Assembly: GCA_964016885.1 (NCBI GenBank)
Contig: OZ024743.1
Coordinates: 88,412,001-88,476,000, forward strand
Source: Eledone cirrhosa
Taxonomy: Eukaryota
Reading direction: 5' to 3'
Length of the DNA: 64,000 nt
In this document: one piece after another, positions 4,196-52,310 of the stretch
Layout: the number at the start of each line of letters is the position of its first letter
How positions within the stretch are numbered: position 1 is the first letter of the stretch
Notes under the pieces: model-generated
Told to the model about the DNA's origin: nothing
The model's database searches: none
The model's input: the letters and a program-made list of their open reading frames with translations, nothing else
Position numbers and translations under genes: made by a program

Positions 4196-6270
4196 TGTAG
4201 GGACTAGTGAGAGTCTGGGAAATAGAGAAGACACGTTCGCTAGAGAACTAAGATTTAACGAGAACCGAGAAAGAGTAGAGTATCGAATATACAAAACGAG
4301 AAGTGGATAGTGGATATATATATATATATCCACTATCCACTTTTCATTTATATATATATGTGCGTGTGTGTGTGTCGTGGGTAACAACATTTAAAAAAGG
4401 TACTCAATACGTTGGTAGAGTATAGGCATCTTTATTATATATACAGTATTTATTTCATACGAATGAAACAGTTCTAAGCCTGTAGAAGTGGGTGACGGAA
4501 GAAAGATTTAGGAAAAAGTCTATAAGCTAAATAGAATAAGGATATAAAAAAATCAATAAGATTAGAAACCAAGATGTTATTTAGTTCTTTATTCTAAACT
4601 CTCATTATCATTGTATATATAGAGAGAGATAAATAGATAGATAGATACTGATACATGCACACACACACACACACATATATATACATAGAGTGATATCACA
4701 CTTTCTACTCATTTTCTCTCTTACTATTTCATACACTATCTATTCGCCTCTTCCACCTTTTACTCTTCTTTCTTCATTCATTTCCATAGTTTTTTTTCTT
4801 CTCCCTTTAGTGCTCTTTCACTTTAATTTCATCTCCGCCCCTTCGCTTTCTTACTCCACCTGCCCCTCCCTCTCTCTCTCTCTTTCTTTTACCCCTCTCC
4901 CCTCTACTCTGGCTGACTGTCCAACTGAAAACAAAACAAGACATTTTTATTATCAAACTATCTTTTAGCTTTCCAATGATAATAATTGAATCCATTTCCT
5001 ACTACTACTACTACCTTTATATGCCCCCATCCCGCTACGACCACCATCACCCGCTCTGCTGTTGCCCAGATTACAACCTTCTCTCTTTCTCCACACAAGC
5101 ACTCGGTACCTGCATGTTAGTGCTATCCATGTATTTATTTATATAATTTATACATATCACGCAGATCATTCTGGCTACATCTGCCCAGAAACACTTGCGT
5201 CTTGCAAATAATTTACCACCTCAAAACTAGAAACACTATTGTCATCCACATCCACATATATCATCATCATCTTCCGTATATTATTTCATTGTAGTTTCGG
5301 ACGAATATCCTCATCATTTATTTACTTAAACGACATGGTTCCCATAGGCAATATGTAGTCGTTTCCCATACATATGTAGGGAAGCTAAAGACCTTTAGCA
5401 ATGAGGGAATACCAAAAAATCTCCTCAGACCGGGTTACGCTATCCTCCCTTTAAATCTAAGTCTTCCAGATTACGTAAAACGATCATAAATGTTTGTGAA
5501 TGAAAGAACAGCAAATGATGCCGATGATGCATATGTGTGTATAATTTATATTGTGAGAGTGTGGAGAGACAGAGTGAAAGAGAGGAGTGAATTAAACTGA
5601 TTAGTTGGGAGTTAATGGCAGGGAGAAAGTTACAAGTATGCAGGGTATGCTTCTTCGCACTCTCACCCTCTCTCCCACTCTCTCAAGGACCGCAAAACCG
5701 CGAGGGGGTGGAGGTTACCAGGATGGAGGGAGGGTATCTTTTCGCCTCCAAAAAAATCTTCCATTAAAATAGTGAGAAAGGCTGTTAAAATTATATTTCG
5801 GCATTTTAACTACTCGAATATACATATATTTTGTCTGTGTGAGCGCTTCTTTTTATGAGCCATGCCCTCCCTCCCTCTAAAAACAGCTCGGCAGTCCTTG
5901 TCTATAGCCAATTAACTGACACATATTACACACACATACATGCATTTCACTTCCACACATAGGCACTCACTTAAATCTACAGACAAATGTATACACTGAC
6001 ACACAGACACAAATCGTACGTGTTGTACCAGACACGTGCACATAGAAAACAACACTGGTGTACACACTAGCACACACACCAGCGTTTTAGTGAAATAGAG
6101 AAGTAGGCTGTAATAATATAGCACTTAGAACAAAATATGCCAGTGATGTTAGTACACATCAGTGAGCAAATATGACATGTCATAGAAACTAATACAAAAG
6201 ATTTACTGTTATATCGTAAACAGAGCCATATTATTGATAAGGCTTACTATGCCAAAGCTTAGGGATTCCA

Positions 6271-7652: not shown

Positions 7653-8301
7653 AAAAGAAAATTTCGCTCTACATGGCTGAATACAATAAATGTAATCTGA
7701 GTTTTTCGAATATTAATAATAACATTCGATTCGTTTGCAATTATGCAAACACGCCTCAATTTTATAGCCATGTCAGTAGAATGAACACTTTATTCTTGCT
7801 CTTGTGTTGGCATGCTATAAAATTGAGGCGTGTTTGCATAATTGCAAACGAATCGAATGTTATTATTGATATTCGAAAAACTCAGATTACATTTATCGGA
7901 TTCAGCTATGAAGAGAGAAATTTTCTTTTTTATTTGAATTTGGCAAGGCAGCCATTTATCGCTCGTATACAGGAAACTGACAGGCCAGTCTGCTGATATG
8001 CAAATCTGGCTGATCAGTGGATATGCAGATCTGACTGATCAGCCAATCTGCTAATATGCAAATCAGGCTGATCAGTCACTGTGTATTTTTGAAAATAGCA
8101 TATATTTTCACTAGCTCTGACAGCTTGGCAGGCGAACAGTGAGCTGTACTGATGAAGAGCTGTACTGTTTGAATGCCAACACAAGAGCAAGAATGAAGTA
8201 TTCATTCTACTGATGTTGCTATAAAATTGAGGCTTGTTTGCATAATTGCAAACAAATCGAATGTTATAATTAATATTTGAAAAACTCAGATTACATTTAT
8301 T
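7653..8301. repeat. Compound fold-back (three copies of a ~90-130 bp arm) flanked by TA-rich runs
   Basis: 7653-7768 is inverted at 7814-7930. 7687-7813 (arm plus spacer) is inverted again at ~8173-8301. Short CTGATCAG-containing repeats lie at ~7975-8080. Confidence 0.85.
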
Positions 8302-8584
8302 ATATATAAATATATATATATATTATTCATTGTATAATTACAAATGGCTTAAAACTATTTCCCCTTAGTATTTAATCATGTATTCTTATTCAGTATGCAT
8401 GAAGTTCATTCATTCTTTCAAATGAACCTTGCATATATATGTATTTCCCCTTGCATTTAATCATGTGTTCTTATTTAGTATGCATGAATTAGCCATATGG
8501 CATTTACCCATTTAAATTATGAAATATACTATTTATACTGAATACATATATATATATATCTGTAGCACAGATATGTGCTCTGGT

Positions 8585-11900: not shown

Positions 11901-12320
11901 TTGTTAGAGCAGTAGTGGGCATTAGAGACTCGTTAATCCTATCCTTAAGTTCGTCTGGCAACTCCGATTGGGGTGCGTAAGCTGATATTATTGTGGTAAT
12001 TGTTTCATTCAGGACTAGTCTGAGTTTAATGATTCTTGCATTCACCCTGTTCACTGAGATTACCTTATCTACCCATTTGTCAGCTAGTAGGATACCTACA
12101 CCACCGATCCCATTGTCATTTCCCACCCAGAAAAATTTGTAGCACTGACTTTTTCCTACACAGCATACATCAATTTCCTTTCGCTCTAGAATCTCTACGA
12201 TTTCTCCTGCTCTTCGTTTCATTGTGCTTACATTGATGGTTCCAACTCGGAGTTTTGGGCATTTGTCAACATTCGTGGGAAAGGGTCGATTTTTGCATGG
12301 GTGTGTGTATGCTTCTTGTC
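8951..12320 (-). mobile_element. Near full-length, disrupted RTE LINE (subfamily A, same family as 26068-29088)
   Basis: Collinear ORF pieces 11842-12399 (APE N-term: LRVGTINV, ISAYAPQ, AGDFNGH), 10946-11707, 10026-10883 (RT: FVDLEK, QGSVLSPLLF, YADD) and 9154-9711, separated by frameshifts and stops. Long 3' UTR and (GAT)n tail at ~8951. Confidence 0.95.
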
Positions 12321-12399
12321 TCTGAATTGAAGCTTCACATGGGTATATATATACACACACACACACACATATATTTATATACATATATATATATATCAA

Positions 12400-12650
12400 C
12401 AGTCAATCGACAAGATCCCAGACCTCATTCACTTAACGAGTGGGGTGGAGCTAGTCAAACCAGACTGAGGAAACAATGTTTCCACTGGTATTTTCAATTA
12501 CTAATACTGTCGGTCACAAACCCAGGCAGAGTGAACAACATGAAATAAAATGTCTTGCTCAAGGACATAAAGCATTGCCCAGTCTGCGAATCAAAATCAC
12601 AACCTAACGATTGCAAATCCAATTCTCAAACCACTCAGCCACATGCCTTC
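12400..12650 (-). mobile_element. tRNA-headed SINE with CORE-like segment (family S2)
   Basis: Minus strand has an A-box-like TGGCTGAGTGG followed by TGTCCTTGAGCAAGACATTTTATTTCA. Related copies at ~24645-24870, ~34316-34645 and ~57960-58065. Confidence 0.6.
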
Positions 12651-13772: not shown

Positions 13773-15105
13773 AGAGTACAACAGATGCCTTCTTCTTGGT
13801 GAGACAATTACAAGAGAGGTTCTTAGAGAAAAATAAGCCACTATACTTAGCCTTTGTTGACCTAGAGAAGGCCTTTGATAGGGTACCCCGATCTGTCATC
13901 TGGTGGTCCCTAAGGAAACTAGGTGTTGAGGAATGGCTTGTGAGGACAGTGCAAACTTTGTACAGAGGTACTGTCAGTAAAGTCAGGGTAGGAATGGAGT
14001 TTAGTGAGGAATTCCAGATACAAGTAGGAGTACATCACGGTTCGGTCCTCAGCCCGCTCTTGTTCATTATAGTCCTCTAAGCCATAACAGAGGAGTTTAA
14101 GACTGGCTGTCCATAGGAACTTCTCTATGCTGACGATCTGGTTCTTATAGCAGAATCAGTAGAGGAGCTAGAGAATAAATTCTGGCTATGGAAACAGCAG
14201 TTGGAAGCAAGAGGACTGAGAGTGAACCTAGCTAAGACGAAAGTGTTGATGAGTAGAAAAGAGGACAAAACTCTGATTCCGTCAGGGAAATGGCCATGTT
14301 CGATATGCAGAAAAGGAACTGGCATAAATTCTATAAAATGCACACAATGCAGATCCTGGGTACACAAGAGATGTAGTGGGATAGCAGGCAAACTAACAGG
14401 TAGGGAGAAATACGTATGCAGTAGATGTACAGGGAAATTAGACAGTAGATGTCGCATTGATAGACACATTTTTCAAATGCAGGCAGGTGCTATAGAAGTG
14501 GTGGATAGCTTCCGGTACCTAAGAGATCAGATTAGCATGGGGGGGGGGGGTTCCGAGGCCATAGTATCTAGAATAAGGACGGGTTGGAAGAAGTTTAGGG
14601 AGTTGCTTCCTCTGCTGACAAAGAAGGGTTTCTCCCTGCGTACGAAAGGCCGGTTATATGATGCCTGTGTGAGGAGCGCGATGTTGCATGGTAGTGAGAC
14701 ATGGACAGCAACTGCAGAGGATATGCGACGGCTGGAGAGAAATGAGGCAAGCATGCTCCGTTGGATGTGCAATGTCAATGTGCGTGAACGACCCAGCATG
14801 AATGTGTTGAGAGAGATAGAATGTAGTGTGCGAGAGAGGAGACTGAGGTGGTATGGACATATGATGCGCATGGAGGATGACCGATGGGTGAAGAAGTGCC
14901 AGGAAATGCCTGTTGAAGGAAGACGTGGTAGAAGTAGACCACAAAAAACATGGGTGGAGGTGGTGAGAACAGACCTCAGATCGCTGAAGCTCACGGGGGA
15001 GATGATGAAGGACCGTGACAAGTGGAGAGATGCTATGCTGAATAAGACCCGTCCCACCCTTGCAAACAGGGAAAAGTGGATGTAAAATGATCATGATGAT
15101 GATTA
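13772..15105 (+). mobile_element. 5'-truncated RTE LINE (subfamily B, short 3' end)
   Basis: RT motifs STTDAFFLVRQLQE, FVDLEKAFD, GSVLSPLLF and YADD (with two in-frame stops near 14080 and 14115), a PHD-like finger, and a C-terminus running directly into a (GAT)n tail. The 5' end abuts (TA)n. Confidence 0.95.
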
Positions 15106-15176: not shown

Positions 15177-16096
15177 ATCCTTACATACTTAAATATAAAT
15201 GCATGTATATATATATATACAAATGTATAAATGCATAGCTATATACATATATATTAATTCAAAATATTACAAAAATAGAACTTCTTGTGATCAAGTATAT
15301 TTTATTATACATATTTCAGAGGTACTGAGCTAACTTCAACAGTACGTCCTCATCAGATAAAATAAGATGATGTATGACATACCCTGACATAGTAGATGGT
15401 TAAGATCCAGTCGTGGTAGTGAGTAAGATATGACAAAACTCAATATTTATATACCTTAAGATTGAGACATGAAAAAACTTACATATAATACAGAGGGTGC
15501 GTGTAAGGACATAACTGTTAGAGATTCAAATAATTATTGAACTAATTCTTTGATTTATTCATTGAACCTTGTTTAACCTTTAAATATATATATATATAAA
15601 TCTACATACATACATATATACATACATATATTTACGTATGTATATAGCTATGCATTTATACATTTGTATATATACATACATTTATATGCATGTATATATA
15701 CAAATGTATAAATGCATAAATATATACATACGTAAATGTATGAATGTATATATGTATGTATGTAGATTTATATATATATACAATATATATATATAAATCT
15801 ACATACATCATATATACATACATACATTTACGTATGTATATAGCTATGCATTTATACATTTGTATATATACATACATTTATATGCATGTATATATACAAA
15901 TGTATAAATGCATAAATATATACATACGTAAATGTATGAATGTATATATGTATGTATGTAGATTTATATATATATACAATATATATATATAAATCTACAT
16001 ACATACATATATACATACATACATTTACGTATGTATATAACTATGCATTTATACATTTGTATATATACATGCATTTATATTTAAGTGTGTAAGGAT
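15177..16096. repeat. AT-rich structure bounded by ~70 bp inverted repeats, with internal tandem palindromes (~196 bp unit, ~2.5 copies)
   Basis: ATCCTTACATACTTAAATATAAATGCATG… (15177) is inverted at …CATGCATTTATATTTAAGTGTGTAAGGAT (16096). Units starting AAATCTACATACAT at ~15598, ~15796 and ~15991 each fold back on ATGTATGTAGATTT (third unit partial). Confidence 0.8.
15298..15364 (-). ncRNA. Minimal type I hammerhead ribozyme motif (Penelope-like/retrozyme type)
   Basis: Minus strand: UAUUUUAU-CUGAUGA-[GGA c GUACUG…CAGUAC c UCU]-GAAA-UAUGUAU-A-AUAAAAUA. It has a perfect 8 bp stem I, a paired stem II, a short quasi-palindromic stem III and an AUA cleavage triplet. Confidence 0.85.
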
Positions 16097-25845: not shown

Positions 25846-26067
25846 TTGTCAAATCATTCAAGAAATCTGGAATTTCAAATGCACATTAGATGACAGATAA
25901 GACAATATATCTAAAGCCAAATTCACCTCGTGGACGAGAATGCAAGCACTCCTCCTTGTTTCGGCCCAGGATGGCTAACATAACCCCATCCCCCCCCCCC
26001 CCCCCCCCCCCCCGCGCCCCACCGCTCCCACCCTCCAAACGCAATCCAAAACTTCAGAGTTGGTACC

Positions 26068-29000
26068 ATGAATGTAGGCACCTTAAAGGGTCGCTCTAAC
26101 GAGGTTGTAGAAATGCTTGAACGTAAGGAGGTCGATGTTTGTTGTATTCAAGAGACCAGGTGGAGGGGAGGGTCGGCTAGATTCATCGTGGGTAAAGAGC
26201 GATGCTATAAGCTTTTCTGGGTGGGAAATGACAATGGGTTGGGTGGGGTAGGAATCATGGTAGCAGAAAAGTGGGCAGATAAGATAATAGACGTAAATAG
26301 AGTGAACGACAGAATAATTAAAATAAGACTTGTCCTCAATAAAACTACGGTGACAGTAATATCTGCGTACGCACCCCAATCCGGACTGCCCCGCGCTATA
26401 AAAGACAGATTCTACGAGACACTGATGCTCGCTACCTCCCAAATAACCGACAGTGACTATATAGTTATTGCAGGCGACCTAAATGGTCACGTTGGACAAC
26501 ATTGTGACGGCTATGACGGAATCCATGGAGGCTATGGGTTCGGTACTAGAAATGAGGAAGGCTCCAGAATCCTGGAATTCTGCGACGCAAATAACTTAAC
26601 TATCTGTAACACTAACTTCAAAAAACGAGACAATCACTTGATCACCTATAGATCGGGGGAACACACAAGCCAGGTAGATTATATCCTTACCAGAAGACGT
26701 GACAGAGTGTCTGTTGTTAACACTAAATCCCACCCCCATGAAGAATTCACCTCCCAACATAGACTGATAATTAGCGACCTCATAGTCAGGACGAGACGTA
26801 CTAGACAGCGAAAGAGGACTATCCTCAGGAGAAAAATATGGAAGCTAAAGGACCCCATAGCCAGAAATAAATTTCAAAGCAAATTACTTGACGCTTTCGA
26901 CAGTAAGGAAGAGCAATTAGAGTCGTATAATATAGAGGAACAGTGGGAATTCCTGAGAGCAAACCTGCTGACGGCGGCAGACGAAGTCTGTGGCTGGAGC
27001 AGGCCTGTAGGTAGGAGGAGAGTAACATGGTGGTGGAACAGTAAGGTGGAGGAGTCAATTAAGGCCAAAAAGCAGGCTTGGAAAGTATGGCGGGATGGGG
27101 GAAGTAGAGAAGACTATCAAGTGGCCAGGAGGGAAGCTAGGAGACAAGTGTACTTCGCAAGAAGGGAAGCAGAGGAAAGAAAGTTCAAGCATGTTCTACA
27201 ACGTGAGGACCAAAAACGTGAGGTGTTCAGGATTGCCAGGCAATGTGTCAAGGAAAACCGTGATATTGTCGGGGAGAAGTGTGTACTTAACGATGATGGC
27301 ATACTTGCCATCACCGACGCTGATAAGAAGGTAGCTTGGAAGTGTCACTACGAAAGGCTTCTAAATGAGGAGAACAAATGGGAGAAAGACAGTCTCCCCC
27401 AGATCGATCCAATAGAGGGACCAGCAGTGTTAGTTGAAGGTAGTATAATAAGTAAGGCAATCAAAGATATGAAGACGGGTAAGGCGGCTGGGCCTTCGGA
27501 AATAGTTGCTGAGATGCTGAAGGCATCTGGTTCGGTGGGACACACCATGGTCACCCGGATAGTTAACCAAGTCGTACAGAATGGGGTTGTTCCGAAGGAA
27601 TGGCGTAGCAGCATCATCGTTAACTGCTATAAGGGAAAAGGAGATGCCCTAGATAGGAGTAACTATAGAGGCATTAAATTAATCGACCAGGTCATGAAGG
27701 TCACGGAAAAAGTAATAGCGCAACTAATCAGAGAGAGAATTGATCTAGATGAAATGCAGTTCGGGTTTGTGTCAGGCAAAAGTACCACAGACGCTCTTTT
27801 CATTGTACGACAACTACAGGAGAAGTACCTAGCTAAAAGTAAACCCCTATACTTAGCTTTTGTCGACTTGGAGAAAGCCTTCGACAGAGTCCCCCGTTCC
27901 ATTATCTGGTGGTCTCTTAGAAAACTAGGTGTTGACGAATGGCTTGTGAGAGCTATACAAGCCATGTATAAAGAAACAGTCAGTAAGGTTAGAATTAACA
28001 ACGAATATAGTGAAGAGTTTAGCGTAAAAGTTGGTGTCCATCAGGGCTCTGTACTTAGCCCCCTACTATTTATTATTGCCCTTCAGGCTATAACAGAGGA
28101 GTTCAAGACCGGCTGCCCATGGGAACTCCTATACGCAGATGATCTAACGCTCATAGCTGAATCAATGACCGAACTAGAGAAGAAATTCCAAACGTGGAAG
28201 CACGGCCTAGAATCAAAAGGCCTTAAAATTAACCTGGCTAAGACTAAAGTTCTAGTTTGTAGGAAAGAAAATAAGGCGGCGGTCCCATCGGGGAAATGGC
28301 CATGCTCAGTGTGTAGGAAAGGCGTAGGTAGAAACTCCATTTTATGTCCCAAATGCAAAGTATGGGTGCATAAAAGATGTAGTGGGATCACAGGTAAGCT
28401 AACTAAGAACATAGATTTTACATGTGGCCGGTGCTCTGGTGCAATAAGTAGCAGCAAGTGCCCACAAAATACTAGCTCCTTCAACTGCGCAGAGGGTTCT
28501 ATAGAAATAGTGGACAGCTTCCGTTATCTGGGTGACAAAATCAGCAGTGGGGGAGGGTGCTCTGAAAGTACAGTAGCTAGAGTCAGAACTGGATGGAAAA
28601 AGTTCAGAGAGCTTATACCACTATTAGCCGCTAGAGGGTTCTCCCTAAAAATGAAAGGCAGGTTATACGATGCCTGCATACGAACAGCAATGCTGCATGG
28701 CAGTGAGACCTGGGCATTGTGTGCAGAGGATATACGCAGACTAGAGAGGAACGAAGCTTGCATGCTCCGCTGGATGTGCAATAGTAATATACGTGAACGG
28801 CAAAGCATAAACGAACTAAGGAAAAAATTAGAAATAAGAGGGATCAGATGTTGTTTACTCGAGAGAAGGCTACGTTGGTACGGTCACGTGATGCGCATGA
28901 AAGACGACAGCTGTATAACAAAGTGCAGGGCAATAAAGATAGACGGTAGCCACGGAGTAGGCAGACCCAGAAAAACATGGGACGAGCTGATAAATTCCGA

Positions 29001-29088
29001 CCTCACACGCTTACACCTCTCCAAGACAATGTCACTGGACCGAGACCTTTGGCGGTACTCAGTAATAGAGAAGACCCGCCTTACCTAA
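26068..29088 (+). CDS. RTE LINE polyprotein: APE endonuclease, reverse transcriptase and PHD-like zinc finger
   Basis: APE motifs (T)MNVGTL, CIQETRW, ISAYAPQ, AGDLNGH, QVDYIL and SQHRLI. RT motifs KGKGD…NYRGIKL, QFGF, FVDLEKAFD, GVHQGSVLSPLLF, LYADD, GLKINLAKTKV and FRYLG. RTE C-terminus RRLRWYGHVMR…GRPRKTW. Confidence 0.97.
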   Translation: MNVGTLKGRSNEVVEMLERKEVDVCCIQETRWRGGSARFIVGKERCYKLFWVGNDNGLGGVGIMVAEKWADKIIDVNRVNDRIIKIRLVLNKTTVTVISAYAPQSGLPRAIKDRFYETLMLATSQITDSDYIVIAGDLNGHVGQHCDGYDGIHGGYGFGTRNEEGSRILEFCDANNLTICNTNFKKRDNHLITYRSGEHTSQVDYILTRRRDRVSVVNTKSHPHEEFTSQHRLIISDLIVRTRRTRQRKRTILRRKIWKLKDPIARNKFQSKLLDAFDSKEEQLESYNIEEQWEFLRANLLTAADEVCGWSRPVGRRRVTWWWNSKVEESIKAKKQAWKVWRDGGSREDYQVARREARRQVYFARREAEERKFKHVLQREDQKREVFRIARQCVKENRDIVGEKCVLNDDGILAITDADKKVAWKCHYERLLNEENKWEKDSLPQIDPIEGPAVLVEGSIISKAIKDMKTGKAAGPSEIVAEMLKASGSVGHTMVTRIVNQVVQNGVVPKEWRSSIIVNCYKGKGDALDRSNYRGIKLIDQVMKVTEKVIAQLIRERIDLDEMQFGFVSGKSTTDALFIVRQLQEKYLAKSKPLYLAFVDLEKAFDRVPRSIIWWSLRKLGVDEWLVRAIQAMYKETVSKVRINNEYSEEFSVKVGVHQGSVLSPLLFIIALQAITEEFKTGCPWELLYADDLTLIAESMTELEKKFQTWKHGLESKGLKINLAKTKVLVCRKENKAAVPSGKWPCSVCRKGVGRNSILCPKCKVWVHKRCSGITGKLTKNIDFTCGRCSGAISSSKCPQNTSSFNCAEGSIEIVDSFRYLGDKISSGGGCSESTVARVRTGWKKFRELIPLLAARGFSLKMKGRLYDACIRTAMLHGSETWALCAEDIRRLERNEACMLRWMCNSNIRERQSINELRKKLEIRGIRCCLLERRLRWYGHVMRMKDDSCITKCRAIKIDGSHGVGRPRKTWDELINSDLTRLHLSKTMSLDRDLWRYSVIEKTRLT

Positions 29089-36759: not shown

Positions 36760-37160
36760 AATTGGCAGTATCGGTAGAGGGTCGGACGCCATGCTTTGAC
36801 GCATAGAGTTACGGCCCTTGCCATTCTGAGTTCAAATCCCGCCGAGGTTAACTTTGCCTTTCATCCTTACGGTAATTGCTGGCCTTGTGCCAATAGTAGA
36901 AACAATTATTTAAATCCAAACCATAAGATGAACATAATTTAAATACAAAAGTGTAAAAGAAAATTGTACGAAATAATCCACACTGACAGACAGCCAGAAT
37001 TTAAGAAATAGTAGATCATATATAATTATTGTTTCTAAATTTGGCCGTCCGAAGGGGAGCAATTTGAAGGGAAAGGGAAAGTCAACTAAATCGACCCCGT
37101 GCGTTACTAGTACTTTATTTTATAGACCCCGTAAGGATGAAAGGCAAAGCTAATCTCGGT
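36760..37160. mobile_element. Two S1 SINE copies in opposite orientation (~36760-36910 +, ~37025-37160 -)
   Basis: TGGCAGTATCGGTAGAG (A box)…GAGTTCAAATCCC (B box)…AACTTTGCCTTTCATCCTTACGG. Confidence 0.8.
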
Positions 37161-37360
37161 TTCTAAGCATGGAAAAACTGAACGTAAAATCGATATTAGT
37201 AATAAAACTAAAATAACGAAATGTCAAAACAATAACAACTATAAATAGATTTCAGAGAGAGAGAAATGAGAAATATATATATATCAGGATGGATTAATTT
37301 TGAAACTGGTTAGATCATTACTCACCAGAGTACTCGATACTTGGGGTCGTAGCATATGGT

Positions 37361-37475
37361 TATATTATAAAGAGTCGGGACCCCCATGGCTGAGCTCTTG
37401 CCGTTTCAATAGCTAGTTCCAGACCGGAACTAGCTGTTGAAACGGCAAGAGCTCAGCCATAGGGATCCCGACCCT

Positions 37476-37485
<10 letters not shown>
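37361..37485. repeat. Hairpin palindrome, 60 bp arms, 5 nt loop
   Basis: 37361-37420 pairs with 37426-37485 with 4 transition mismatches. The right arm ends in (TA)n. Confidence 0.95.
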
Positions 37486-37517
<32 letters not shown>

Positions 37518-39025
37518 CACGTGTGGACATGTGATTTGTTGTAATAAATAAACTTTTATCTACTCATTACCAACATTTAATAACGATATCATCTACAAAA
37601 ACAAACAAACAAATGAATGATATAATGATTATGTATTTTCATGAAAGAGCTAACGTTAGAAGCTAATAAAGCTTTGAGCTTTTATAACTGTAGGTCATAT
37701 AAGAACATGGTTATACAAGGATAATGCAATGAAGTCAATTCATTTATTGCAGATCATAAAACTGCGAATCTTTCATTAATTTTCAAGACACGACCCAAGT
37801 TTAGTTTTGAACCGGAAAAATCGATAGCCAGTCAGTCCGTAATATTTCACCAGCTTTGCTATTATCAGCTATTTCAAACTGCCAACATCCAGTGTTGATA
37901 TGCACACTTGGCAGAAGCACTTTAACTACACATATGATACAAGAATAAAAAGAACAAAGTAGAAGGGAAAAAAGAAGTAACTTTATTCCTTTACGACCTT
38001 CTCTCTCTTGCTTACCGCCATTGTTGGCATTAAAGACTGCCATATTAAAGACACATTGATGTAAATATTGACATTAGAACAGTGTACGAAATAAAAGGAG
38101 AAATTATAAGCAATGAATGAATGGTAACTGTAACAACGTAGGCGATACAACGTATCTTACAGATTTCTTCACATCTTTTCTGGCATTTAAGCTTTTATTG
38201 TGGAATTGAAATGTAATTTATATGAAAATAAGAACGTTTTAAATAAAATGCCTTTAATGTTTAACGGCAGTTTGTTCAAGACAAATGTTGAAGTCATACG
38301 GTGCTTTTTGTAAACCTTTGCTATTGAGGAAACAATGCCGGCTACTTGTATTACACACTTTTGTTTGTTGAGGGTTTTTTCTTCTTTTATAAAGCAGATG
38401 TCGTCGTTGTTAAAATTTTACCATTGTGTATATAAATAAGTCTCTCCTTGGAATGTTTCCAGTGGCTTTCATCAGATATACTGAAACTTAATATCCCAGG
38501 GAAAGTTGGGAATGGAATATGTGCGAGTCGTTTCTTTTTTAATTACATTAGATAAGTAAGGTGAACCCACTGAAACAGATGATTGATATGCGTGTCTATA
38601 TACACACACATCCACGCCCACATATTTTTAAACAAATCTGTTTAGTGAAGGAGGGAAGAGCGATGGCCATGGCTCTTTTCAGGTCTTCTGCGATTGAGAG
38701 AAGAGAGGGAGGAGGGTAGCCTCAAACTGGAGACTAGATCCGAATCCTTGCAACAGAAATAAGCTCAACTAAAGGGACCCAATAAATAGATGGTGGTCGT
38801 ATTAAACTAGGCGTCGGATTCAGTCAACCCCCAATAAAACACACACACGTATATATATATATATATATATATATATTTAAATCTACTGTGATTTAAAAAT
38901 ATCCGACACTAATTTGCATAATAGTATAAATAAATTTATAACCCCACTATCCGGGAGCTTCCAACAGAAATGGTCGCATTCTTTAAGGGTATGTCAATAT
39001 TTATTTATAAAACTGATCTATATTA

Positions 39026-39090
39026 TATTTTATCTGATGAAAGCACACCATAATTTAACTTGGTGTCCTGGAAATATGTATAATGAAATA
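39026..39090 (+). ncRNA. Minimal type I hammerhead ribozyme motif, near-intact
   Basis: UAUUUUAU-CUGAUGA-[a AG c ACACCA…UGGUGU c CU g]-GAAA-UAUGUAU-A-AUGAAAUA. Stem I pairs with one G:U; the pair closing stem II is A.G. It lies in a ~250 bp segment flanked on both sides by (TA)n. Confidence 0.75.
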
Positions 39091-39128
39091 AATATGGTTT
39101 TATAAATACAGTTTCTATTTGTTAATAT

Positions 39129-39164
<36 letters not shown>

Positions 39165-39336
39165 TTTCTGATTTAGGCACAAGGTCAACAATTAAATTGA
39201 CCCCAGTGCATTATTGGTACTTTATTTTATCGACTCCGTAAGGATGAAAGGCAAAGCTAACCTCGGCGGGATTTGAACTCAGATCGTAAAGGCGCGTAAT
39301 CCTATGTCACAAAGCATGTTGTCCGATGCTCTACCG

Positions 39337-39340
<4 letters not shown>
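39165..39340 (-). mobile_element. S1 SINE
   Basis: …GGATGAAAGGCAAAGCTAACCTCGGCGGGATTTGAACTCAG…GCTCTACCG. Confidence 0.8.
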
Positions 39341-39382
<42 letters not shown>

Positions 39383-39692
39383 GAGAGAGAGCGATTGCAT
39401 CTGAAAGTGTTGGTCAAATTTACGGCCACGAAACCGTTTTGTAAGTGAAACTGTTAATAAAAAATATTCTCAATTATTTCCATATTATGTGTTGATTGCT
39501 CTTTTGTTTCGTTTGTACCCCAACCTATATAATAATATATATAGCCATATCTTATCACTACTTTATAAATTTCTCATATTTTCAATTTAGCTTGTCTTAA
39601 TAAATTATAAGGTTGCCATGAAATCTTCGCCATCAACCCAGCTCCACCCCCACCTTCGTCATTCATCTCATTGTTCTCACTCTTTCGTTTTT

Positions 39693-39830
39693 TCAAAACT
39701 GACTCCCATCCTCTCTCTTTCTCCAAACTGACTCCCCCCTCTTTCTGTCTCTCTCTCTTTTTCTCCAAACTGACTCCCCCGTCTCTCTTTCTTGCTTTCT
39801 CCAAACTGACTCCCCCCCCCCGTCTCTCTC
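39693..39830. repeat. Short tandem repeat, 4 copies
   Basis: TTTCTCCAAACTGACTCCCCC separated by CT-rich spacers. Confidence 0.75.
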
Positions 39831-42177
39831 TCTTTATTTTCGTTCCTATTCATGTAAAAAACATGAGTTTTCTCGTTCGATGTACCTGTTACTGAGAGGG
39901 AGAAAAACAAATAGTGTGAGAGAGAGAGAGGGGGAATAGTAAGAAATAGACGAGGAAAATAGTAAGGGAGAGAGGAGAAAAGTAGTAAGAGGGAGAGAAA
40001 TAGTGTAAAAATGTGGGGAGAAGGCAGAGGTGTAAACGAAGTGATAGACAGAAGAGAAGAAAAAGATAAAGAATCTAATAAGAGAGATAGATAGTGAGAG
40101 AGAGAAGAGGGTTAAAGGGAAATAAAGTAACAATATGAGAGAAGAGTGAGATTGAGTGGAGGAGAGAAGTAGAAAGGGTGGAGATCGGGTTTTTGCTTAG
40201 AGGTCAGCTTTGATTAAATAAACCTACGATGAAATAATACATTTCAGCTATGGCCATTCGTCTTTTATTCATTTATCATCGTGTGGAATTTCAGGGACAT
40301 TTAGCTGTTGTTTCGAGCTGAAAGTGGTGAATGGGTGGGGTGGCAATAGTGAGCGGGTGGACAATAAAGAAGGGTATAAGAAGGGAGAAAAAACGGGATG
40401 AACTGTATTAAATGTAAGGATAGAGGGTGTGTAGAAAGAGAGTGGGAAGTAGAGAGATATGATAGGGGAAGAGAACTGATATATAGATAAATAGATAGAT
40501 AGATATATTTCTTTATTTGCCAGAAGGGCGCATAGATAGATAGATAGATAGGATAGAGAGAGATAAAGAGGTATTAAGAGAGTAAGGTGGCGAGATCGAG
40601 TTGGTAAAGAGAAAGAGAAGTGAGCGAAATGGTAGGGAGACAGAGAAATATGGTAGAGGGAGAGTGGTGGAAGAATGAGAGAGAGAGAGATAGCAATTGT
40701 GGAAAGCTTTATCCTGAAGGTAATTGAAACTAAAAAAAAGAATATCAGTGAAGTAAAGTAATCGACTGGAGAGTGAAGTGTGTGCATGTGTGTGAGTGAG
40801 AAAGAGAGATGAAGATAGATGTAGTAAAAAGAGGAGAGAGAGAGAGAGGTGACATCTCTTAGAGTCAGTAGAGAGAGAGAGAAAATGGGGGAAGGAGATA
40901 GTCCGACATTGCATTCTTTAATTGCCATTCAATGTTATTTGCATTAAATCTGAGATCTCCATGGTTACACTCTCTCTATCTTTCTCGCTGCATCACTATC
41001 ACCATCACCACCACTACCACCATCTCACTTATCTCTTGTGACCGATTTTGCACATTGACATGTGCGTGCATATGACGGGGATGTGGATGGGGTTGATGAG
41101 GGACTTGGTGGAAATCGTAAGTTGTGTGATGGTAATTGGGGAGAAGGATGAAATGCCAGTGATGATGGTGGTGGTGGTGGTGATGATATTGCTTTGCAAT
41201 GGTAGTGATGATAAAGGAACTCCTTAGTAGTTACAGAATTAGTCATGTGTATGTTAGAAACAAACAAGCTTGCTTACACGATGCTTTTTCGCCATTTTTT
41301 TTATTAATATTGTTAACAATGGTGACGTTTAAGGAAGATTAGCTAAAAACAGACGATAAACAAATTCGTCCATATATAATAAGCATTATTTCATTCAGTC
41401 GTCTTCGTGCACTAAGAACGATATTACGTCATGAATGAATAGCGCATAGTATTTTTCAACTATGACAAACAAAATATGGCTGTAGTTGGGGAGCAGAAAA
41501 ACTAGATGACAGCAAAATATAGGGCATTTCATTGAATTATTTGCATGATTTTGAGAGAAAAACATAAAAGTTTTACATGGCGAGCCAGTTCAGTGTAGTG
41601 GTTTAAAATGACAAATCAAATGGAAACGATCGAGAAACGTTATATTAAACAAATACATGCAGATGATATAGCAGAAGGGGGAGGGGGCCCTTAACTCATG
41701 ATAGAGTCGTAGAGGTACCATTTTGACACACGGCATATCTGGCATTTTAAACTTGGCGGAGTCTATCCCTCTCCACCAGGCCAGTTACCCTTGGGGAAGG
41801 GCTGGGGATCAGAATATTCTGGATGCGCACTTTCGCAAGAAACGTATTTCTAGGGATGGAGTGAGGGCAGTGTCATCCAGTAGCCCTTTCAGACCCGTGG
41901 CGACGGACGAGCTCTTCAGATTTGAACATAGCCGGTTTCTTCAAGAAATGGCGTGAGAGAGAGAATTGACTCTAGTACTGGTACGTTAAATATCGATCTC
42001 GAAAGAATGAAAAACAACTTTGATCTCTCCTGCTTACACAGTTATAATATTATAACTATTCCTATACAGATACCAAATCAGTAATGAAAATGACCACCTT
42101 TAGTTAGATAACTTCAATTGTTTCTTTCCCTCGCTCGCTCGCTCTCTCTCTCTCTCACTATATATACATACATACAT

Positions 42178-42210
<33 letters not shown>

Positions 42211-42256
42211 CCCAATGATATTAAATAAATGGAAACTATATTTATAAAACCATATT

Positions 42257-42318
42257 TATTCTATTATAATATATTTCAAGGGTACCAAAGCTTTGGTACG
42301 CTTTCATCAGATAAAATA
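42257..42318 (-). ncRNA. Minimal type I hammerhead ribozyme motif
   Basis: Minus strand: UAUUUUAU-CUGAUGA-[AAG c GUACCA…UGGUAC c CUU]-GAAA-UAUAUUAU-A-AUAGAAUA. All core residues and stems are present. Confidence 0.82.
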
Positions 42319-42348
42319 CGAATTTTATGTTTCATCAGATAAAATTCG

Positions 42349-42409
42349 TATTTTATCTGATGAAAGCATACCAAGGCTTTGGTACCCTGGAAATATATAT
42401 AATAGAATA
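42349..42409 (+). ncRNA. Minimal type I hammerhead ribozyme motif, near-intact
   Basis: UAUUUUAU-CUGAUGA-[aAGcaUACCA…UGGUAccCUg]-GAAA-UAUAUAU-A-AUAGAAUA, with a palindromic stem III and A.G at the base of stem II. Confidence 0.75.
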
Positions 42410-42989
42410 AATATGGTTTTATAAATATAGTTTCCATTTATTTAATATCATTGAATATTATGCTACAGAAAACTTGTCGAGTGCTCTGAATCAGTTATAA
42501 ACATTTATATTTGTTGAATTACCAACAAATTGAATATCCCTTCTGCTTATATATATATAAGCAAATAGATATTTAATTTGTTGGTTATTCAACAAATTTA
42601 TTTATAACAGTTTCGAAGCACTCTACAAATTTTTTCTGGAGTAGATAGTTTCCATGTATTAATATCATTGATATATAAGGTTTCCCTACTAGTACATTTA
42701 CATTCATTAAAAACAACAGAAGGCCGGAACTGGAAATTTTCTTTAAAATTTTAATTCCGCGAAAACGCTACATATATTTCGATGGCCCAGCTTCATCATC
42801 CGATCATGATGCCATACTTAGGCAATTTCACCAGGTGTTAATTAGTTCCATAATGTAACAGGGTTACGGCGAATACAAACAGAGAATAGAAAATAGAGGA
42901 CCGATTTGATTCGGGGATGGCCCGCTAATTCAGTGTTATTGTAACGTGAAACCATCGCCGACTGATTTATGGATGGTTTGTCGTAGTGG

Positions 42990-43110
42990 GAATTTCTGGT
43001 GTCCTTGGCCCGAGGGCCACCTCCCTGCTCACCACTATCGGCATAGTTGGCTACCCGCAGGTGTGAGCCTCGCGAGCTGGAATGGCTTTTCCAACGCGTC
43101 TTCCTCATCA
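42990..43110 (+). mobile_element. CRE-like 3' fragment
   Basis: Encodes SGVLGPRATSLLTT…LATRRCEPRELEWLFQRV across a frameshift; homologous to 25660-25845. Confidence 0.6.
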
Positions 43111-44519
43111 CCCTCCGGGAAAACTCCTCCGTTCTGTCTGCCGAGGCCGCGTGGGCCCCATTTGCTCATAATAGTGAGAGATGGGAAGAGCGGGGCAGAC
43201 GGAGGCAGTGGTAGTTTGCTCCTTTTGTATTCGGAACTTGTGTATGTGTATATGTTTCACGGACACACACTTTAGCAATTGAGAGACAGCGTGACAAACA
43301 GGCAGAACCATTGGAACACGTATGACAGGACAGTGAGAAATATGTTTAAATCACCAACATCTGAACAATTAACTTTCTTGAATTTACATTTGGACTTGAA
43401 ATATAAAGTACGTACTATTTGTATTGTTAACACAGAATGTATTGTGTACTTTTCTACATTTCATAACACTGCGTAAGTGAAGTAAGTGCCTTTTACTATA
43501 AGCCTCTTGTCGACGAAAGCTTTATCAGTAAAACTTAGTAGATGAAATATAGGTCAATCTGAAAAAACCGTTCCTATTTTTAGATAGTAAACTTGGTCGG
43601 TCACCCGGTTTAACACTACCATGTAAACCTTGACTGACTTTAGTGAAAGCCATTCTGTTTATTGTGCAAAGAAATATTACAAAAAATAATATATATATAT
43701 AGAAGTAGGACAGTTCGCTACAGAAAACATTCAGATATCTGTTCTAGCCATCACTTCTTCTACCCCAACCCCCCAATCTCGGTATTTGCCTGTTTTCCTT
43801 TCCTCCACGTTACGTGTGGCAGTGTCTAGGTATGTGGCCCAAACGACAAGGCATGAGGCGGAGAACGTGTTGCAGCATGAGGTGTCCCAGATTAGAGATT
43901 TACTTCCCTCCCTCGAACGGGAAAATGGTTATCCCGTCTGGGTGCTTACCATCACCACGCTCGAGGCTGGCAGGCTCTAGCTATGATGGGAAATCGGCCA
44001 CGTCAAGTTTCCTTCTGAGAGAAGGAGGGGTGATGAGTACAGTCTGTTTGAATTGACCTACTATGCACATGTATTTGGGAGACTAACCGCGTCGAGGTTA
44101 TATTTGTAAAAATGGTATATATATATGTATAATATGAATCAAGACTATGATAGTTAATGGAGTATCTTTAAACTATGTAATATTTTATTGGTTTCACCAG
44201 CAAAGTTATTATAATAGCAGGCACATGGCAACACCTGTTATAAGATGAAATCTAATAGCCAGGACTAACGTCAAACCAGCAGCAGCAGGCAATTTGTAAA
44301 AATCATAGCTATATTGGTCTCTTTTCTTCAGTTGTTGTCACTATTAATAACACATAACAGCCACTGAATGGAAAGAAAAGGCGGTTAAAGATTCTTAACT
44401 TATCCTAATCGTTTTTATTTTCTCTTTATTTCAACATTGCCCTAAATAAACGTTTTTTCCCTCCTTTCTGCTTGAATATGTTGAAGCGTCGTATAATTCT
44501 AATTAAGATATATACATAT

Positions 44520-45285
44520 AATTGTTTCTACTTTTAGGCACAAGGCCAGCAATTATCCAGTGCATTACTGGTACTTTATTTTATCGACCCCGTAAGGATG
44601 AAAGGTAAAGTCAACCTCGGCGGGATTTGAACTCAGATCGTAAAGGGACGTAACTATGCTGGAAAGCATGGCGTCCGACCCTCTACCGATACTGCCAATC
44701 CACTACCCTAATGTTAACTAAATAAGATCTTCAAATATTTATATATTTGTAAAATAATATAGTTCATACCAAGCGGCGAATTGGCAGTTGTATTCGTTTT
44801 GGCTCTATGCTCAAATACCACCAAGGTCAACTTTGCCTTTTATCCTTTCGAGGTCGATAAAACGTACCAACCCAGTTCAGGGGCTCATTACAAGTCCTTT
44901 ACTGGTTTGAAATATTTACATGTACGGTAAACAAAGCAAAGATAATAACAATAAAGATGATTTAAAAAGAAAGAAAAAAGATAAGCGCATATCCTCAACG
45001 ATACACTACCACAGCGAATAATGGTGTTCCCATCTAAACATTTTCGAAGCAAATTTAACACTCACGGTATTAATGGTTTCTGGTTTCGGCACAGGGCCAA
45101 CAATTTGGGGGGAGCGGAAAGTTGATTAAATCGACCGCAGTGACTAGTTCTTTAATTTATCGACCCCGTAAGGATGAATGGCAAAGCCAACTTCAGCGAG
45201 ATTTGAACTCAGAATGTAAAGGGCCGTAACTCTATCCCGCGAAGCAGGGTGTCCGACGCTCTAACGATTCGGCCAATCCACTGAC
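44520..45285. mobile_element. Cluster of three S1 SINEs (~44520-44708 -, ~44772-44880 +, ~45073-45285 -)
   Basis: Same tRNA A/B-box head and CTTTGCCTTTCATCC…GTCGATAAAA core as the other S1 copies. Confidence 0.8.
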
Positions 45286-46089
45286 TTACAGCATTAATGA
45301 TAATATGGCAGAGGTGATGGAAAAGCCAAGCACCCTAACAAGCAAGTTAACTAAAAATTATTAACGGATGTCGCTGGCCATTGTCCTCAGAAATGCTTTT
45401 GTTGTCTTGTCCACAGAGTGTAGCCCCAACACCACCACGCCCTAGGCCCAGAGCCCATCATCCTCTCCCCGTCCCCCTCCTTTTTTTCTGTGGCCCTATA
45501 GTCCTTGTCTTCCCCCTCCTTTTCCATTTATGGATTTAATAGTCCTTTCCTCTACTTTTCCATACAGCCAGATCTGCCTTTTCTTACCACCTCCCCATTT
45601 TGCTTTTATCTTTCTCGTATTTTTTGATAATGATCTCACACACACACGCATACACACACACACAGACAGATTTATATAATTATAATTTGTAAGATAATAT
45701 GGTTCAGAGCTGCTGATTAGACATAATAAAGTGGTTTTAAACTAGAAATAATTTAATCTGTTTTATCAGATGTAAATATTAAAGAAACGGGTTTCGTATA
45801 TTTGTAAGCTACACAATTAGCCATTTACCAGTTCTCTCATTTGGGTTCATTGAATTTTTCACACTTTTGGAGAGAAGAGAAAAGAAAAAAAATGATCGTA
45901 CTGAGGGAACAGAGTTTAACAATATGACATTAATTAGTTACAATCGATCTTCATTAACCTCGACTGAAATAGAAACCTATCCGGGAATTCTTAAAATCAA
46001 TGATTAGAGAAGATATGTAATATATAATATATATTTTTCTTTTTCCGGGCGATGGGAATATTACCATCTTTGTCGTTATATATATATAT

Positions 46090-46209
46090 ATATAGAAATG
46101 GCTTCTACAGGACTAGAACTGTTTCATTCGAGAGAAATCAACAGGAAAGCTTTCCTGGTGATTTCTCCCGAATGAAACAGTTCTAGTCCTGTAGAAGCCA
46201 TTTCTATAT
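46090..46209. repeat. Loopless palindrome (60 bp arms, centre AAGCTT) carrying degenerate hammerhead-like cores
   Basis: Two mismatches between arms. The right arm reads CUUUC-CUGGUGA-uUUCuccCGAAu-GAAA-CAG…CUG-U-A-GAAG; the left arm has CUGUUGA. Confidence 0.9.
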
Positions 46210-46509
46210 TAAATATTTATACCCTGCTATGTATTGAGTACCTTACTTACGGTGGTTACCCCCGATTGACCCCGGGATAAACATATATATATATAACAAA
46301 GAAGGTGTGGAAATATACCAGGTGGACCATAACGAACCACAGTACTCGACACTTAGGGTAGTAGAGTGGGTAATAGGAAAATGATATATATATACATAAT
46401 CACTGGCTTTTCCCTTCTATTCTGCTTACAGTCTCTCGTCCTTAAGTCTATAACTGTACGACACTTCACCTCACCCTATATCTATCTAAATGTATGAATA
46501 CACACATAT

Positions 46510-52019: not shown

Positions 52020-52310
52020 TTGGTAGTATCGGTAGAGGGCTGGATGCCATGCATTGCAGCAGAGTTATAGCTCTTTACAGTCTGAGTTCAAATCCCACCG
52101 AGATTAACTTTGCCTTTCATCCTTACAGGGGTTGATAAAATAAAGTACCAGCCAATATCTTCCGGAGAAGGAGAGGACGAATTGACTCCTGTACTGGACT
52201 GGTACTTTTTAAAAATATATTTCAAAAGGATGATAAGCCAAGTAGACTTAAATGGGATTTGAACTTAGAGTGCAGAGAGCCAGACTGAATACTCCTAAAG
52301 CATTCTTTCA
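52018..52310. mobile_element. Two S1 SINEs (~52018-52155 +, ~52180-52310 -)
   Basis: TGGTAGTATCGGTAGAG…GAGTTCAAATCCC…TTTGCCTTTCATCCTTAC. Confidence 0.75.

What the first reader, a model, noticed from the sequence alone, without database searches (positions are those of the whole stretch)
37325..46370. Shared 3' tail motif on the long arm of otherwise unrelated hairpins
The hairpins at 37.4, 42.3 and 46.1 kb differ in arm sequence, yet each has one arm ending at (TA)n and the other extended by a tail with a common motif. The instances are CAGAGTACTCGATAC…GTAGCATA (37326-37356), the reverse complement CAGAGCACTCGACAA…GTAGCATA (42459-42488) and the reverse complement GGTACTCAATAC (~46230-46242). 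Related copies are GGTACTCAATAC (~4399) and AGTACTCGACAC…GTAG (~46341). Inference: this is a conserved cis signal for RT or endonuclease recognition, equivalent to the short 3' tail extension of PLE pLTRs and shared across subfamilies.
Basis: partly seen in the sequence, partly recalled or inferred. Interest (0 to 1): 0.72.

Follow-up and report, generated by a model that had tools for sequence, protein, structure and literature searches.

The report
Shared tail box in Penelope-type stubs
The three hairpins are short non-coding repeats lodged in TA microsatellites, built like the mirror-image end pieces of Penelope-like jumping genes, and their one-sided tails share a short conserved sequence box that likely helps the copying enzyme choose where to start, which is untested.

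Summary
All cited instances are at the stated coordinates. The shared box recurs in the same place and orientation in at least nine tail families, inside and outside the window.

The conserved unit needs correcting. It is RG-YACTC-RAYA plus a second box, (R)GAGT, placed 4-18 nt further on at the tail/arm border. "GTAGCATA" is not conserved: it comes from private mutations of the two window copies.

The hairpins are high-copy repeats of 200-380 bp without ORFs, flanked by (TA)n. Each has two inverted arms with fixed outer ends and a 62-95 nt tail on one arm only. Autonomous RT+GIY-YIG Penelope-like elements in this genome show the same layout: they end in (TA)n, carry an optional tail, and form inverted pairs with 3' ends outward.

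Published biochemistry (PMC11167929) defines the PLE tail as the RNA between two internal reverse-transcription start sites. The box would then lie 9-20 nt 3' of the inner start site. That makes it a plausible enzyme handle, but this is inferred.

Points against:
- None of about eight autonomous families sampled carries the box.
- Rfam finds no hammerheads.
- No conserved RNA fold was found.
- No RNA data were available.

Verdict: a real, new detail on a known kind of element. Its function is unproven.

The parts
37273..37284 (.). (AT/TA)n flank at the outer end of the 37.4-kb tail
   Evidence: genome copies of this family begin to align here
37285..37356 (+). Tail of the 37.4-kb element, read in 'q' orientation. 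The inferred RNA sense is the minus strand.
   Evidence: the tail is part of a repeat of about 205 bp (3624 first-look candidates; 39 scored non-self copies at 83-90% identity)
37326..37340 (+). Box 1 (CAGA-GTACTCGATAC)
   Evidence: its start lies 31 nt before the arm in 10 of 20 family copies
37349..37356 (+). Degenerate box 2 (GTAGCATA here; GTAGAGTA in the family)
   Evidence: 0 of 21 family copies carry TAGCAT and 17 of 21 carry GAGT
37354..37492 (.). Fold-back with two 67-nt arms and a 5-nt loop; the right arm runs into (TA)n at 37481-37516
   Evidence: (I10)
42208..42458 (.). Fold-back of the 42.3-kb element. The short arm starts at (TA)n. The arms carry a CUGAUGA...GAAA hammerhead-like core that reads from centre to outside.
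   Evidence: (I11, I13), (fold); not recognised by Rfam
42459..42547 (-). Tail of the 42.3-kb element (q orientation on the minus strand). Box 1 is at 42474-42488 and degenerate box 2 at 42459-42466.
   Evidence: the tail end is fixed in 39 scored non-self copies while the inner end varies
42560..42670 (+). Second, separate insertion across (TA)6. It has a tail with a diverged box 1 (GCACTCTACAA, 42618-42628) and box 2 (GGAGTA, 42638-42643), joined to only the last ~27 nt of an arm.
   Evidence: read directly from the sequence
46090..46209 (.). Fold-back of the 46.1-kb element: 60-nt arms and no loop
   Evidence: I12; 39 scored non-self copies at 89-95% identity span the whole unit
46210..46283 (-). 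Tail of the 46.1-kb element, with box 1 at 46231-46241 (-)
   Evidence: box-to-arm distance is 20 nt in 18 of 26 copies
46296..46384 (+). Stand-alone tail of another family (T1) between two (TA)n runs. Box 1 is at 46342-46352 and box 2 (TAGAGTGG) at 46362-46369.
   Evidence: the same tail heads complete fold-backs elsewhere (e.g. L052, L066, L014)
4400..4423 (+). Box 1 (4400-4410) and box 2 (GGTAGAGTA, 4415-4423) of a rearranged copy. A piece of the 46.1-kb arm in the distal orientation follows.

Best explanation
The three hairpins are copies of high-copy, ORF-less repeats sitting in (TA)n microsatellites, and they are most likely non-autonomous passengers of Penelope-like retroelements (PLEs). 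Each insertion would then be two cDNAs laid down with their 3' ends outward: one started at an inner RNA start site and the other at an outer one, so only the second carries the tail.

Shown:
- The anatomy of the elements.
- Their copy numbers.
- The fixed outer ends and the variable centre.
- The parallel layout of autonomous RT+GIY-YIG elements in this genome.
- The recurrence, orientation and spacing of the box.

Inferred:
- The RNA sense strand is the complement of the strand on which the box reads GYACTCRAYA. On the RNA the tail then begins, 0-8 nt after the inner start site, with ACUC. The sequence U(R)U(Y)GAGU(R)C follows 9-20 nt from that site, with 41-63 nt more to the outer start site.
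- This bipartite box is likely the handle that the PLE RT-endonuclease binds, 3' of the inner start site, to set internal initiation.
- Selection on master copies would then explain why the box stays constant while the rest of the tails and the arms differ.
For: Anatomy and copy number:
- The three families have 3624, 3351 and 1308 first-look candidates.
- All scored copies keep the tail's outer end at (TA)n.

The tail end is fixed and the inner end varies, as target-primed reverse transcription predicts:
- Of 39 scored non-self e42 copies, 21 are fold-backs like the window's. Another 17 (94-97% identity) have only the tail plus a longer arm, and 1 is partial.
- Of 7 of those 17 examined, 4 have the inverted arm 104-1238 nt further on and 3 have none. 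L085 is a plain copy of about 257 nt running from (TA)n to (TA)n.

Autonomous PLEs of the same genome:
- ORFs carry RVT_1 plus a C-terminal GIY-YIG domain.
- 'fam-1' ends in (TA)n, followed by a 33-nt tail in 5 of 9 copies.
- 'PLE-H' has 39,700 candidates. It ends at ...AACAA(TA)n in 12 of 17 readable copies and carries a tail of roughly 47-65 nt in the other 5.
- Close pairs read from the hit tables and from L116: 9 inverted with 3' ends outward, 0 with 3' ends inward, 4 tandem.

Literature (PMC11167929, main text read): a purified PLE protein starts reverse transcription at two internal RNA sites. The tail is the stretch between them. Both DNA strands are cut and extended. The RNA needed for binding lies 3' of the start sites.

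Orientation:
- The hammerhead-like core in the e42 arms reads from centre to tail.
- In L026 a body 3' end is contiguous with the complement of the tail.
- A 12-nt fragment equal to the outermost 12 nt of a T3 tail (variant L055) sits alone between (TA)17 and (TA)44.

The box:
- 117 hits against about 6 expected, and 105 of 117 correctly oriented to (TA)n.
- The modal distance from box start to arm start is 20, 21, 26 or 31 nt depending on family. The distal arm is followed by TATA in 80 of 92 cases.
- In a motif-blind set, 97 structurally defined tailed fold-backs fall into 26 clusters, 18 of them usable. Box 1 is present in 9 of 18 (shuffle mean 0.13, max 3). Box 2 lies in the last 16 nt in 11 of 18 (shuffle mean 1.08, max 5). 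Box 1 is on the opposite strand in 1 of 18.
- In the unbiased 200-kb sample, 5 clear tails are found.
Against: - No autonomous partner was found. Box 1 is absent from the tails and 3' ends of every autonomous family sampled (fam-1, A, C, D, E, the L111 type, the L100 type and PLE-H).
- Alignments of T-type tails to those ends are not significant. The best is fam-1 tail against the complement of the T1 tail (score 21, reached by 1 of 500 shuffles, among 48 tests).
- RNAalifold finds no consensus structure in 19 tails. The ACUC/GAGU stem is only 4-5 bp, with mixed support at the fifth pair.
- The spacing is bounded but not fixed.
- The families are not all independent. T1 and T2 have related arms, as do T3/T8 and T4/T4b.
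- Most loci were fetched through the three families, so the large counts are biased.
- In the T5 family the usual copy (about 30 of 40) has the tail inverted at the 5' side of the hammerhead-sense body. This needs the two-cDNA model and would be simpler under the opposite orientation.
- Rfam supports no hammerhead.
- There is no RNA evidence.
Confidence: 0.55

Rival explanations
1. Inherited module without function. All box-bearing tails descend from one ancestral non-coding element. The box is simply the slowest-decaying remnant, and arms were swapped by template switching.
For: - Several families are visibly related: T1/T2 tails and arms, T3/T8 and T4/T4b.
- There is no structure and no partner.
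Against: - An 11-nt core stays constant while the flanks in the same tails fall to unalignable levels in at least 9 clusters.
- Box 2 keeps its place at the arm border in 11 of 18 motif-blind clusters.
- Decay in dead copies does hit the box, as in the window's own e37 and e42 copies. Its constancy between families therefore points to selection on master copies.
Confidence: 0.2
2. DNA-level signal. The box, with its inverted ACTC / GAGT half-sites and the GAGTACTC palindrome in T1/T2, is recognised in double-stranded DNA by the GIY-YIG endonuclease or its zinc-finger linker. It would draw new insertions next to old ones.
For: - PMC11167929 reports earlier work in which the Penelope tail was needed for endonuclease recognition of its own sequence.
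- The window shows tails facing each other across (TA)6 at 42.55 kb and at 46.29 kb.
- Stacked insertions are common.
Against: - The palindrome is not conserved. T3 has GGTACTCA and T4 has GAGCACTC.
- Stacking is also expected from simple (TA)n targeting at a density of 512 (TA)>=4 runs per 200 kb.
- No enrichment test of insertions next to tails was made.
Confidence: 0.13
3. Internal promoter. The second box resembles a Pol III A box (TAGTAGAGTGG in T1), so the tail drives transcription of each new copy as in tRNA-derived SINEs.
For: - T1 matches the A-box consensus, as I recall it, at 10 of 11 positions.
- A GTTTCGA hairpin lies about 50 nt further on (read by eye).
Against: - ARAGORN finds no tRNA-like gene in the window.
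- T4, T5 and the other families keep only GGAGT.
- Box 1 does not fit a B box on either strand.
- About 75 nt of element would lie upstream of the supposed A box.
Confidence: 0.07
4. Chance resemblance among AT-rich hairpin flanks.
For: In the window alone the excess is marginal.
Against:: 20-fold excess, fixed orientation and bounded spacing, seen also in sequence that was not selected for the motif.
Confidence: 0.02

Closest known systems
Complex insertions of endonuclease-positive Penelope-like elements: inverted 5'-truncated copy plus one-sided 30-40 bp 'tail' (PMC8557442, sections 6 and 11 and passages read; PMC11167929, main text read)
   Same: - Insertion into (TA)n or AT-rich DNA.
- An inverted truncated copy with 3' ends outward.
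- An extension on one end only.
- The same layout in the RT+GIY-YIG elements of this genome.
   Different: - No ORF.
- Tails are 62-95 nt instead of 30-40.
- The tails carry a conserved bipartite box that the sampled autonomous tails lack.
- Whole hairpin units recur with the same centre in thousands of copies.
Two internal RT start sites flanking the tail in the Poseidon element of Anolis (PMC11167929)
   Same: It gives a mechanism for a tail present or absent at one end, and for priming on both DNA strands. The RNA needed by the protein lies 3' of the start sites, where the box would sit.
   Different: - The clade and host are different.
- There the start sites lie in an AC-rich stem-loop inside the ORF.
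- Here the sites are only inferred from copy ends.
- No biochemical test was done.
Animal non-LTR retrozymes, proposed to be non-autonomous PLE derivatives (PMC7229834, abstract in search listing; bioRxiv 10.64898/2026.07.22.740005, abstract and outline)
   Same: Short non-coding repeats with hammerhead-like cores (e42 and T5 families), presumably mobilised in trans by PLEs.
   Different: - They are dispersed fold-backs, not tandem arrays.
- Most box-bearing families (T1, T2, T3) lack a canonical CUGAUGA core.
- Rfam finds none.
- Circular RNA was not examined.
Stringent LINE/SINE pairs that share a 3' recognition element (recalled; no call)
   Same: The logic: a parasite keeps only the piece that the enzyme recognises.
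   Different: Here the matching piece was not found in any autonomous element sampled.

Membership tests
PLE-type insertion product (stub with tail) | Insertion into (TA)n or AT-rich target | tested here: met
   Both ends of all three window elements lie in (TA)n. 105 of 117 boxes have (TA)>=4 within 100 nt upstream. TATA follows the distal arm in 80 of 92 cases.
PLE-type insertion product (stub with tail) | Adjacent inverted 5'-truncated copy, with fixed 3' ends outward and a variable centre | tested here: met
   Autonomous pairs: 9 with 3' ends outward, 0 inward, 4 tandem.
PLE-type insertion product (stub with tail) | Short extension (tail) on one end only | tested here: met
   97 one-sided tailed fold-backs were found without using the motif. 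Median tail length is 62-85 nt in the four largest clusters, longer than the published 30-40 bp.
PLE-type insertion product (stub with tail) | Hammerhead ribozyme in the repeat | tested here: inconclusive
   No Rfam hammerhead at gathering score, nor at E<=10 or E<=1. CUGAUGA...GAAA cores with helices I and II are read in e42 and T5. The core pattern lies near 51 of 136 boxes, against 197 of 3000 random segments.
Autonomous PLE | ORF with RT and GIY-YIG endonuclease | tested here: not met
   tblastn with four PLE proteins finds no PLE coding sequence beside the box-bearing elements, apart from one locus edge. The elements are 200-380 bp long.
Non-autonomous partner of a named autonomous PLE | 3' end or tail shared with the autonomous element | tested here: not met
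   No significant alignment to fam-1, A, C, D or PLE-H ends. Box 1 is absent from their tails. Only about eight families were sampled.
Hydra clade of PLEs (PMC8557442, section 11) | No CCHH in the endonuclease, DKT instead of DKG, CxCX5C linker | tested here: not met
   The Pfam-detectable families read here have DKG, a CX4CxxC linker and CxxC...H...H in the endonuclease (sequences), which looks more Neptune-like. The divergent, very abundant PLE-H was not assigned to a clade.
tRNA-derived SINE | tRNA-like 5' part with A and B boxes | tested here: not met
   ARAGORN finds 0 genes in the window. Only T1-T3 have an A-box-like word.
Fold-back or MITE DNA transposon | Terminal inverted repeats at both ends plus a target-site duplication | tested here: inconclusive
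   The ends are asymmetric (tail on one side only), and the centre rather than the ends varies. Duplications cannot be read inside (TA)n.

The most novel reading that the evidence does not exclude
The ACUC...GAGU(R)C box is a telomerase-like anchor or template-boundary element of Penelope-type reverse transcriptases. A dimeric RT-endonuclease grips this short RNA handle and starts copying on either side of it. Tens of thousands of non-coding parasites in this genome have kept little more than the handle and a hairpin.
Probability: 0.22. Interest if true: 0.75.

Novelty: new variant of a known kind. Interest (0 to 1): 0.5.

Why it matters
How Penelope-like elements choose their internal start sites is known from a single in vitro study of one vertebrate element, and the RNA feature that the enzyme recognises has not been defined.

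A short box that many unrelated passengers keep at a bounded distance from the inferred start site is a concrete candidate that can be mutated. The passengers are abundant here: 5 clear tails in 200 kb, which would scale to tens of thousands per genome, though that extrapolation is rough. They also explain much of the perfect-hairpin DNA in (TA)n tracts.

If the box proves to be only an inherited remnant, the finding reduces to ordinary annotation of PLE-derived repeats.

Tried and rejected
- Rfam at gathering score and at permissive E-values: no hammerhead family. The hits are hairpin or microsatellite look-alikes of miRNA models.
- RNAalifold on 19 tails: no consensus pairs.
- Candidate ACTC/GAGT stem: the four core pairs are invariant and therefore uninformative, and the fifth pair is mixed.
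- Single-sequence folds of tails on both strands: z-scores from -2.0 to +0.9.
- Search for an autonomous partner. Result: no tail with box 1.
- Alignment tests in both orientations: nothing significant after allowing for the number of tests.
- By-eye resemblances that did not survive a test or a chance estimate: PLE-A 'ACTCCAG...TCGATTTC' failed the shuffle test; for PLE-H 'CCCCAAGTAT', my own estimate is about one such 10-mer match by chance, and the regional alignments were not significant.
- Truncated-tail census meant to settle orientation: confounded by cross-family partial homology. Only 2 informative cases came out.
- tRNA scan: none found.
- Sequencing runs: no RNA holder listed; no reads were laid.
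- Earlier-findings look-ups by place and by sequence: nothing. Look-ups by words gave leads only.

Full report
**What is there**

The three hairpins are near-perfect inverted repeats:
- 37354-37420 / 37426-37492
- 42208-42328 / 42339-42458
- 46090-46149 / 46150-46209

In each, one arm runs straight into (TA)n. The other arm is prolonged by 72, 89 or 74 nt, and this extension itself ends in (TA)n. The arms of the three elements share nothing beyond 7-mers. The tails share only the 8-12 nt motif pieces.

**They are repeats, and the tail belongs to the repeat**

Each element is one copy of a large family in the 3.0-Gb genome that holds the window (C4:88412001-88476000). First-look candidates number 3624, 3351 and 1308. 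The 39 scored non-self copies of each family are 83-90%, 89-95% and 82-97% identical. Copies align from the (TA)n at the tail's outer end to the (TA)n after the distal arm.

I call the strand on which the box reads GYACTCRAYA 'q'. On that strand the order is (TA)n - tail - arm - loop - arm' - (TA)n.

**Fixed outer ends, variable centre**

In the 42.3-kb family the 39 scored non-self copies divide as follows:
- 21 are fold-backs like the window's.
- 17 (94-97% identical) match only the tail plus a longer arm.
- 1 is partial.

Of 7 of those 17 that I examined, 4 have the inverted short arm 104-1238 nt further on. Three have none, and L085 is a plain copy of about 257 nt running from (TA)n to (TA)n. 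The tail end is therefore constant and the inner end varies. [quoted passage not shown]

The arms of this family carry CUGAUGA, a 10-bp helix II, GAAA and an 8-bp helix I, reading from the centre outwards towards the tail. Rfam does not recognise it.

**Autonomous relatives in the same genome**

A GIY-YIG family search gives 10,596 candidates. [quoted passage not shown]

- One family ('fam-1') ends its ~690-nt 3' UTR in (TA)n. In 5 of 9 copies a 33-nt piece and a second (TA)n follow. Two of three more copies show the same.
- A second, very abundant and very uniform family ('PLE-H') has 39,700 candidates, and 150 scored copies are 93-100% identical in protein. Pfam sees no domain in it. It ends at ...AACAA(TA)n in 12 of 17 readable copies and carries an extension of roughly 47-65 nt before (TA)n in the other 5.
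- Close pairs of autonomous copies, read from the hit tables and from L116, are inverted with 3' ends outward 9 times, never with 3' ends inward, and tandem 4 times.

The small hairpins are thus miniature versions of what the coding elements do. No PLE coding sequence lies beside them.

By the criteria of PMC8557442 (section 11 read), the Pfam-detectable families are not Hydra-like. They have DKG, a CX4CxxC linker and CxxC...H...H in the endonuclease. I did not assign PLE-H to a clade. The same paper notes (TA)n bias for Neptune and Naiad as well.

**What the tail is**

PMC11167929 (main text read) shows the following for a purified PLE protein:
- Reverse transcription starts at two adjacent internal RNA sites.
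- The genomic 'tail' is the stretch between those sites.
- Both DNA strands are cut and extended.
- The RNA needed for activity extends 3' of the start sites.

Applied here, this is an inference: each fold-back is two cDNAs with their 3' ends outward. The arm without a tail began at the inner site and the arm with a tail at the outer site.

Supporting details:
- In L026 a body 3' end is contiguous with the complement of the tail.
- Solo tails exist between two (TA)n runs (window 46296-46384).
- A 12-nt fragment equal to the outermost 12 nt of a T3 tail (variant L055) sits alone between (TA)17 and (TA)44.

A difficulty is the T5 family, where about 30 of 40 scored copies have the tail inverted at the 5' side of a hammerhead-sense body, always with the same junction. 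The published picture of an inverted truncated copy at the 5' end covers this case. The opposite orientation would explain it more simply, however. I therefore rate the orientation at about 0.7.

**The box**

- The regex G[TC]ACTC[GA]A[TC]A hits 117 times in 473,579 nt of window plus loci, against 1-11 in 20 shuffles.
- 105 of 117 hits have (TA)>=4 ending within 100 nt upstream in the motif's orientation, against 1280 of 5000 random positions.
- Most of those loci were fetched through the three families. Even so, of 34 bystander hits in their flanks, 29 show the same context at 41-63 nt.
- The hits fall into 19 clusters.
- The distance from box start to arm start has family modes of 20, 21, 26 and 31 nt.

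A motif-blind screen found 97 one-sided tailed fold-backs in 26 clusters, 18 of them usable:
- Box 1 is present in 9 of 18 (shuffle mean 0.13, max 3).
- A second box, RGAGY, lies in the last 16 nt before the arm in 11 of 18 (shuffle mean 1.08, max 5).
- Both boxes are present in 8 of 18.
- Box 1 is on the other strand in 1 of 18.

In 200 kb taken at arbitrary coordinates there are 7 hits (shuffle mean 2.4, max 5), and 5 of them are clear tails.

The part 'GTAGCATA' is not conserved. Family copies read GTAGTAGAGTATGG and CTGGAGTATAATATT, and TAGCAT occurs in 0 of 21 and 1 of 28 copies.

**What the box is not shown to be**

- RNAalifold gives no consensus fold for 19 tails.
- The ACTC/GAGT stem is 4-5 bp without convincing covariation.
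- Box 1 is absent from every autonomous tail sampled. Three families begin their tails with (T)AACTCGTGT followed by a GTGT/ACAC hairpin, and PLE-H begins with TATTTGTTTCGACAC.
- Alignments to those ends are not significant.
- A hammerhead-like core pattern lies near 51 of 136 boxes, against 197 of 3000 random segments. The association with hammerheads is therefore partial.

**Verdict**

The equation with the PLE tail is well supported by anatomy and by the coding elements of this genome. The reading as an enzyme-recognition signal is the best available, but it is unproven.

Literature searches (full text of the held library) returned no paper that, by title or abstract, describes such a box. 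Supplements of PMC8557442 were not opened and may list octopus families.

Noticed in passing
window 42459-42670 and 46210-46384: At both sites two separate insertions sit with their tails facing each other across only (TA)6. In each pair the second insertion has little or no arm.
   Followed up: partly
G000:C4:344749325-344752393 (L152/L154): A divergent RT-endonuclease element ('PLE-H') that Pfam does not recognise is extremely abundant and uniform. It has 39,700 first-look candidates, and 150 scored copies are 93-100% identical in protein, many with long open frames. Its clade was not assigned.
   Followed up: partly
L152, about 660-700 nt downstream of the PLE-H stop: A 12-nt fragment identical to the outermost end of a T3 tail (variant L055) lies alone between (TA)17 and (TA)44. 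It looks like an aborted copying event.
   Followed up: no
window 25984-29088 (+); also 10026-12402 (-) and 14117-15085 (+): A non-LTR retrotransposon ORF with an AP-endonuclease, an RT and a PHD finger (1034 aa open from stop to stop), plus fragments of similar elements.
   Followed up: no
window 37095-37160 and 52070-52280: A SINE-like repeat (…GACCCCGTAAGGATGAAAGGCAAAG…) recurs in several fetched loci (L004, L007, L030; L093). At 52.1 kb it forms a 55-nt inverted pair (I24).
   Followed up: no
window 7649-8305 and 15587-16091: Large nested palindromic arrays of AT/GT-rich units, with arms of 95-168 nt at 91-95% complementarity. They produce most of the spurious miRNA-model hits in Rfam.
   Followed up: no
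20 arbitrary 10-kb stretches (L184-L203): (TA)>=4 runs are very dense: 512 in 200 kb.
   Followed up: no
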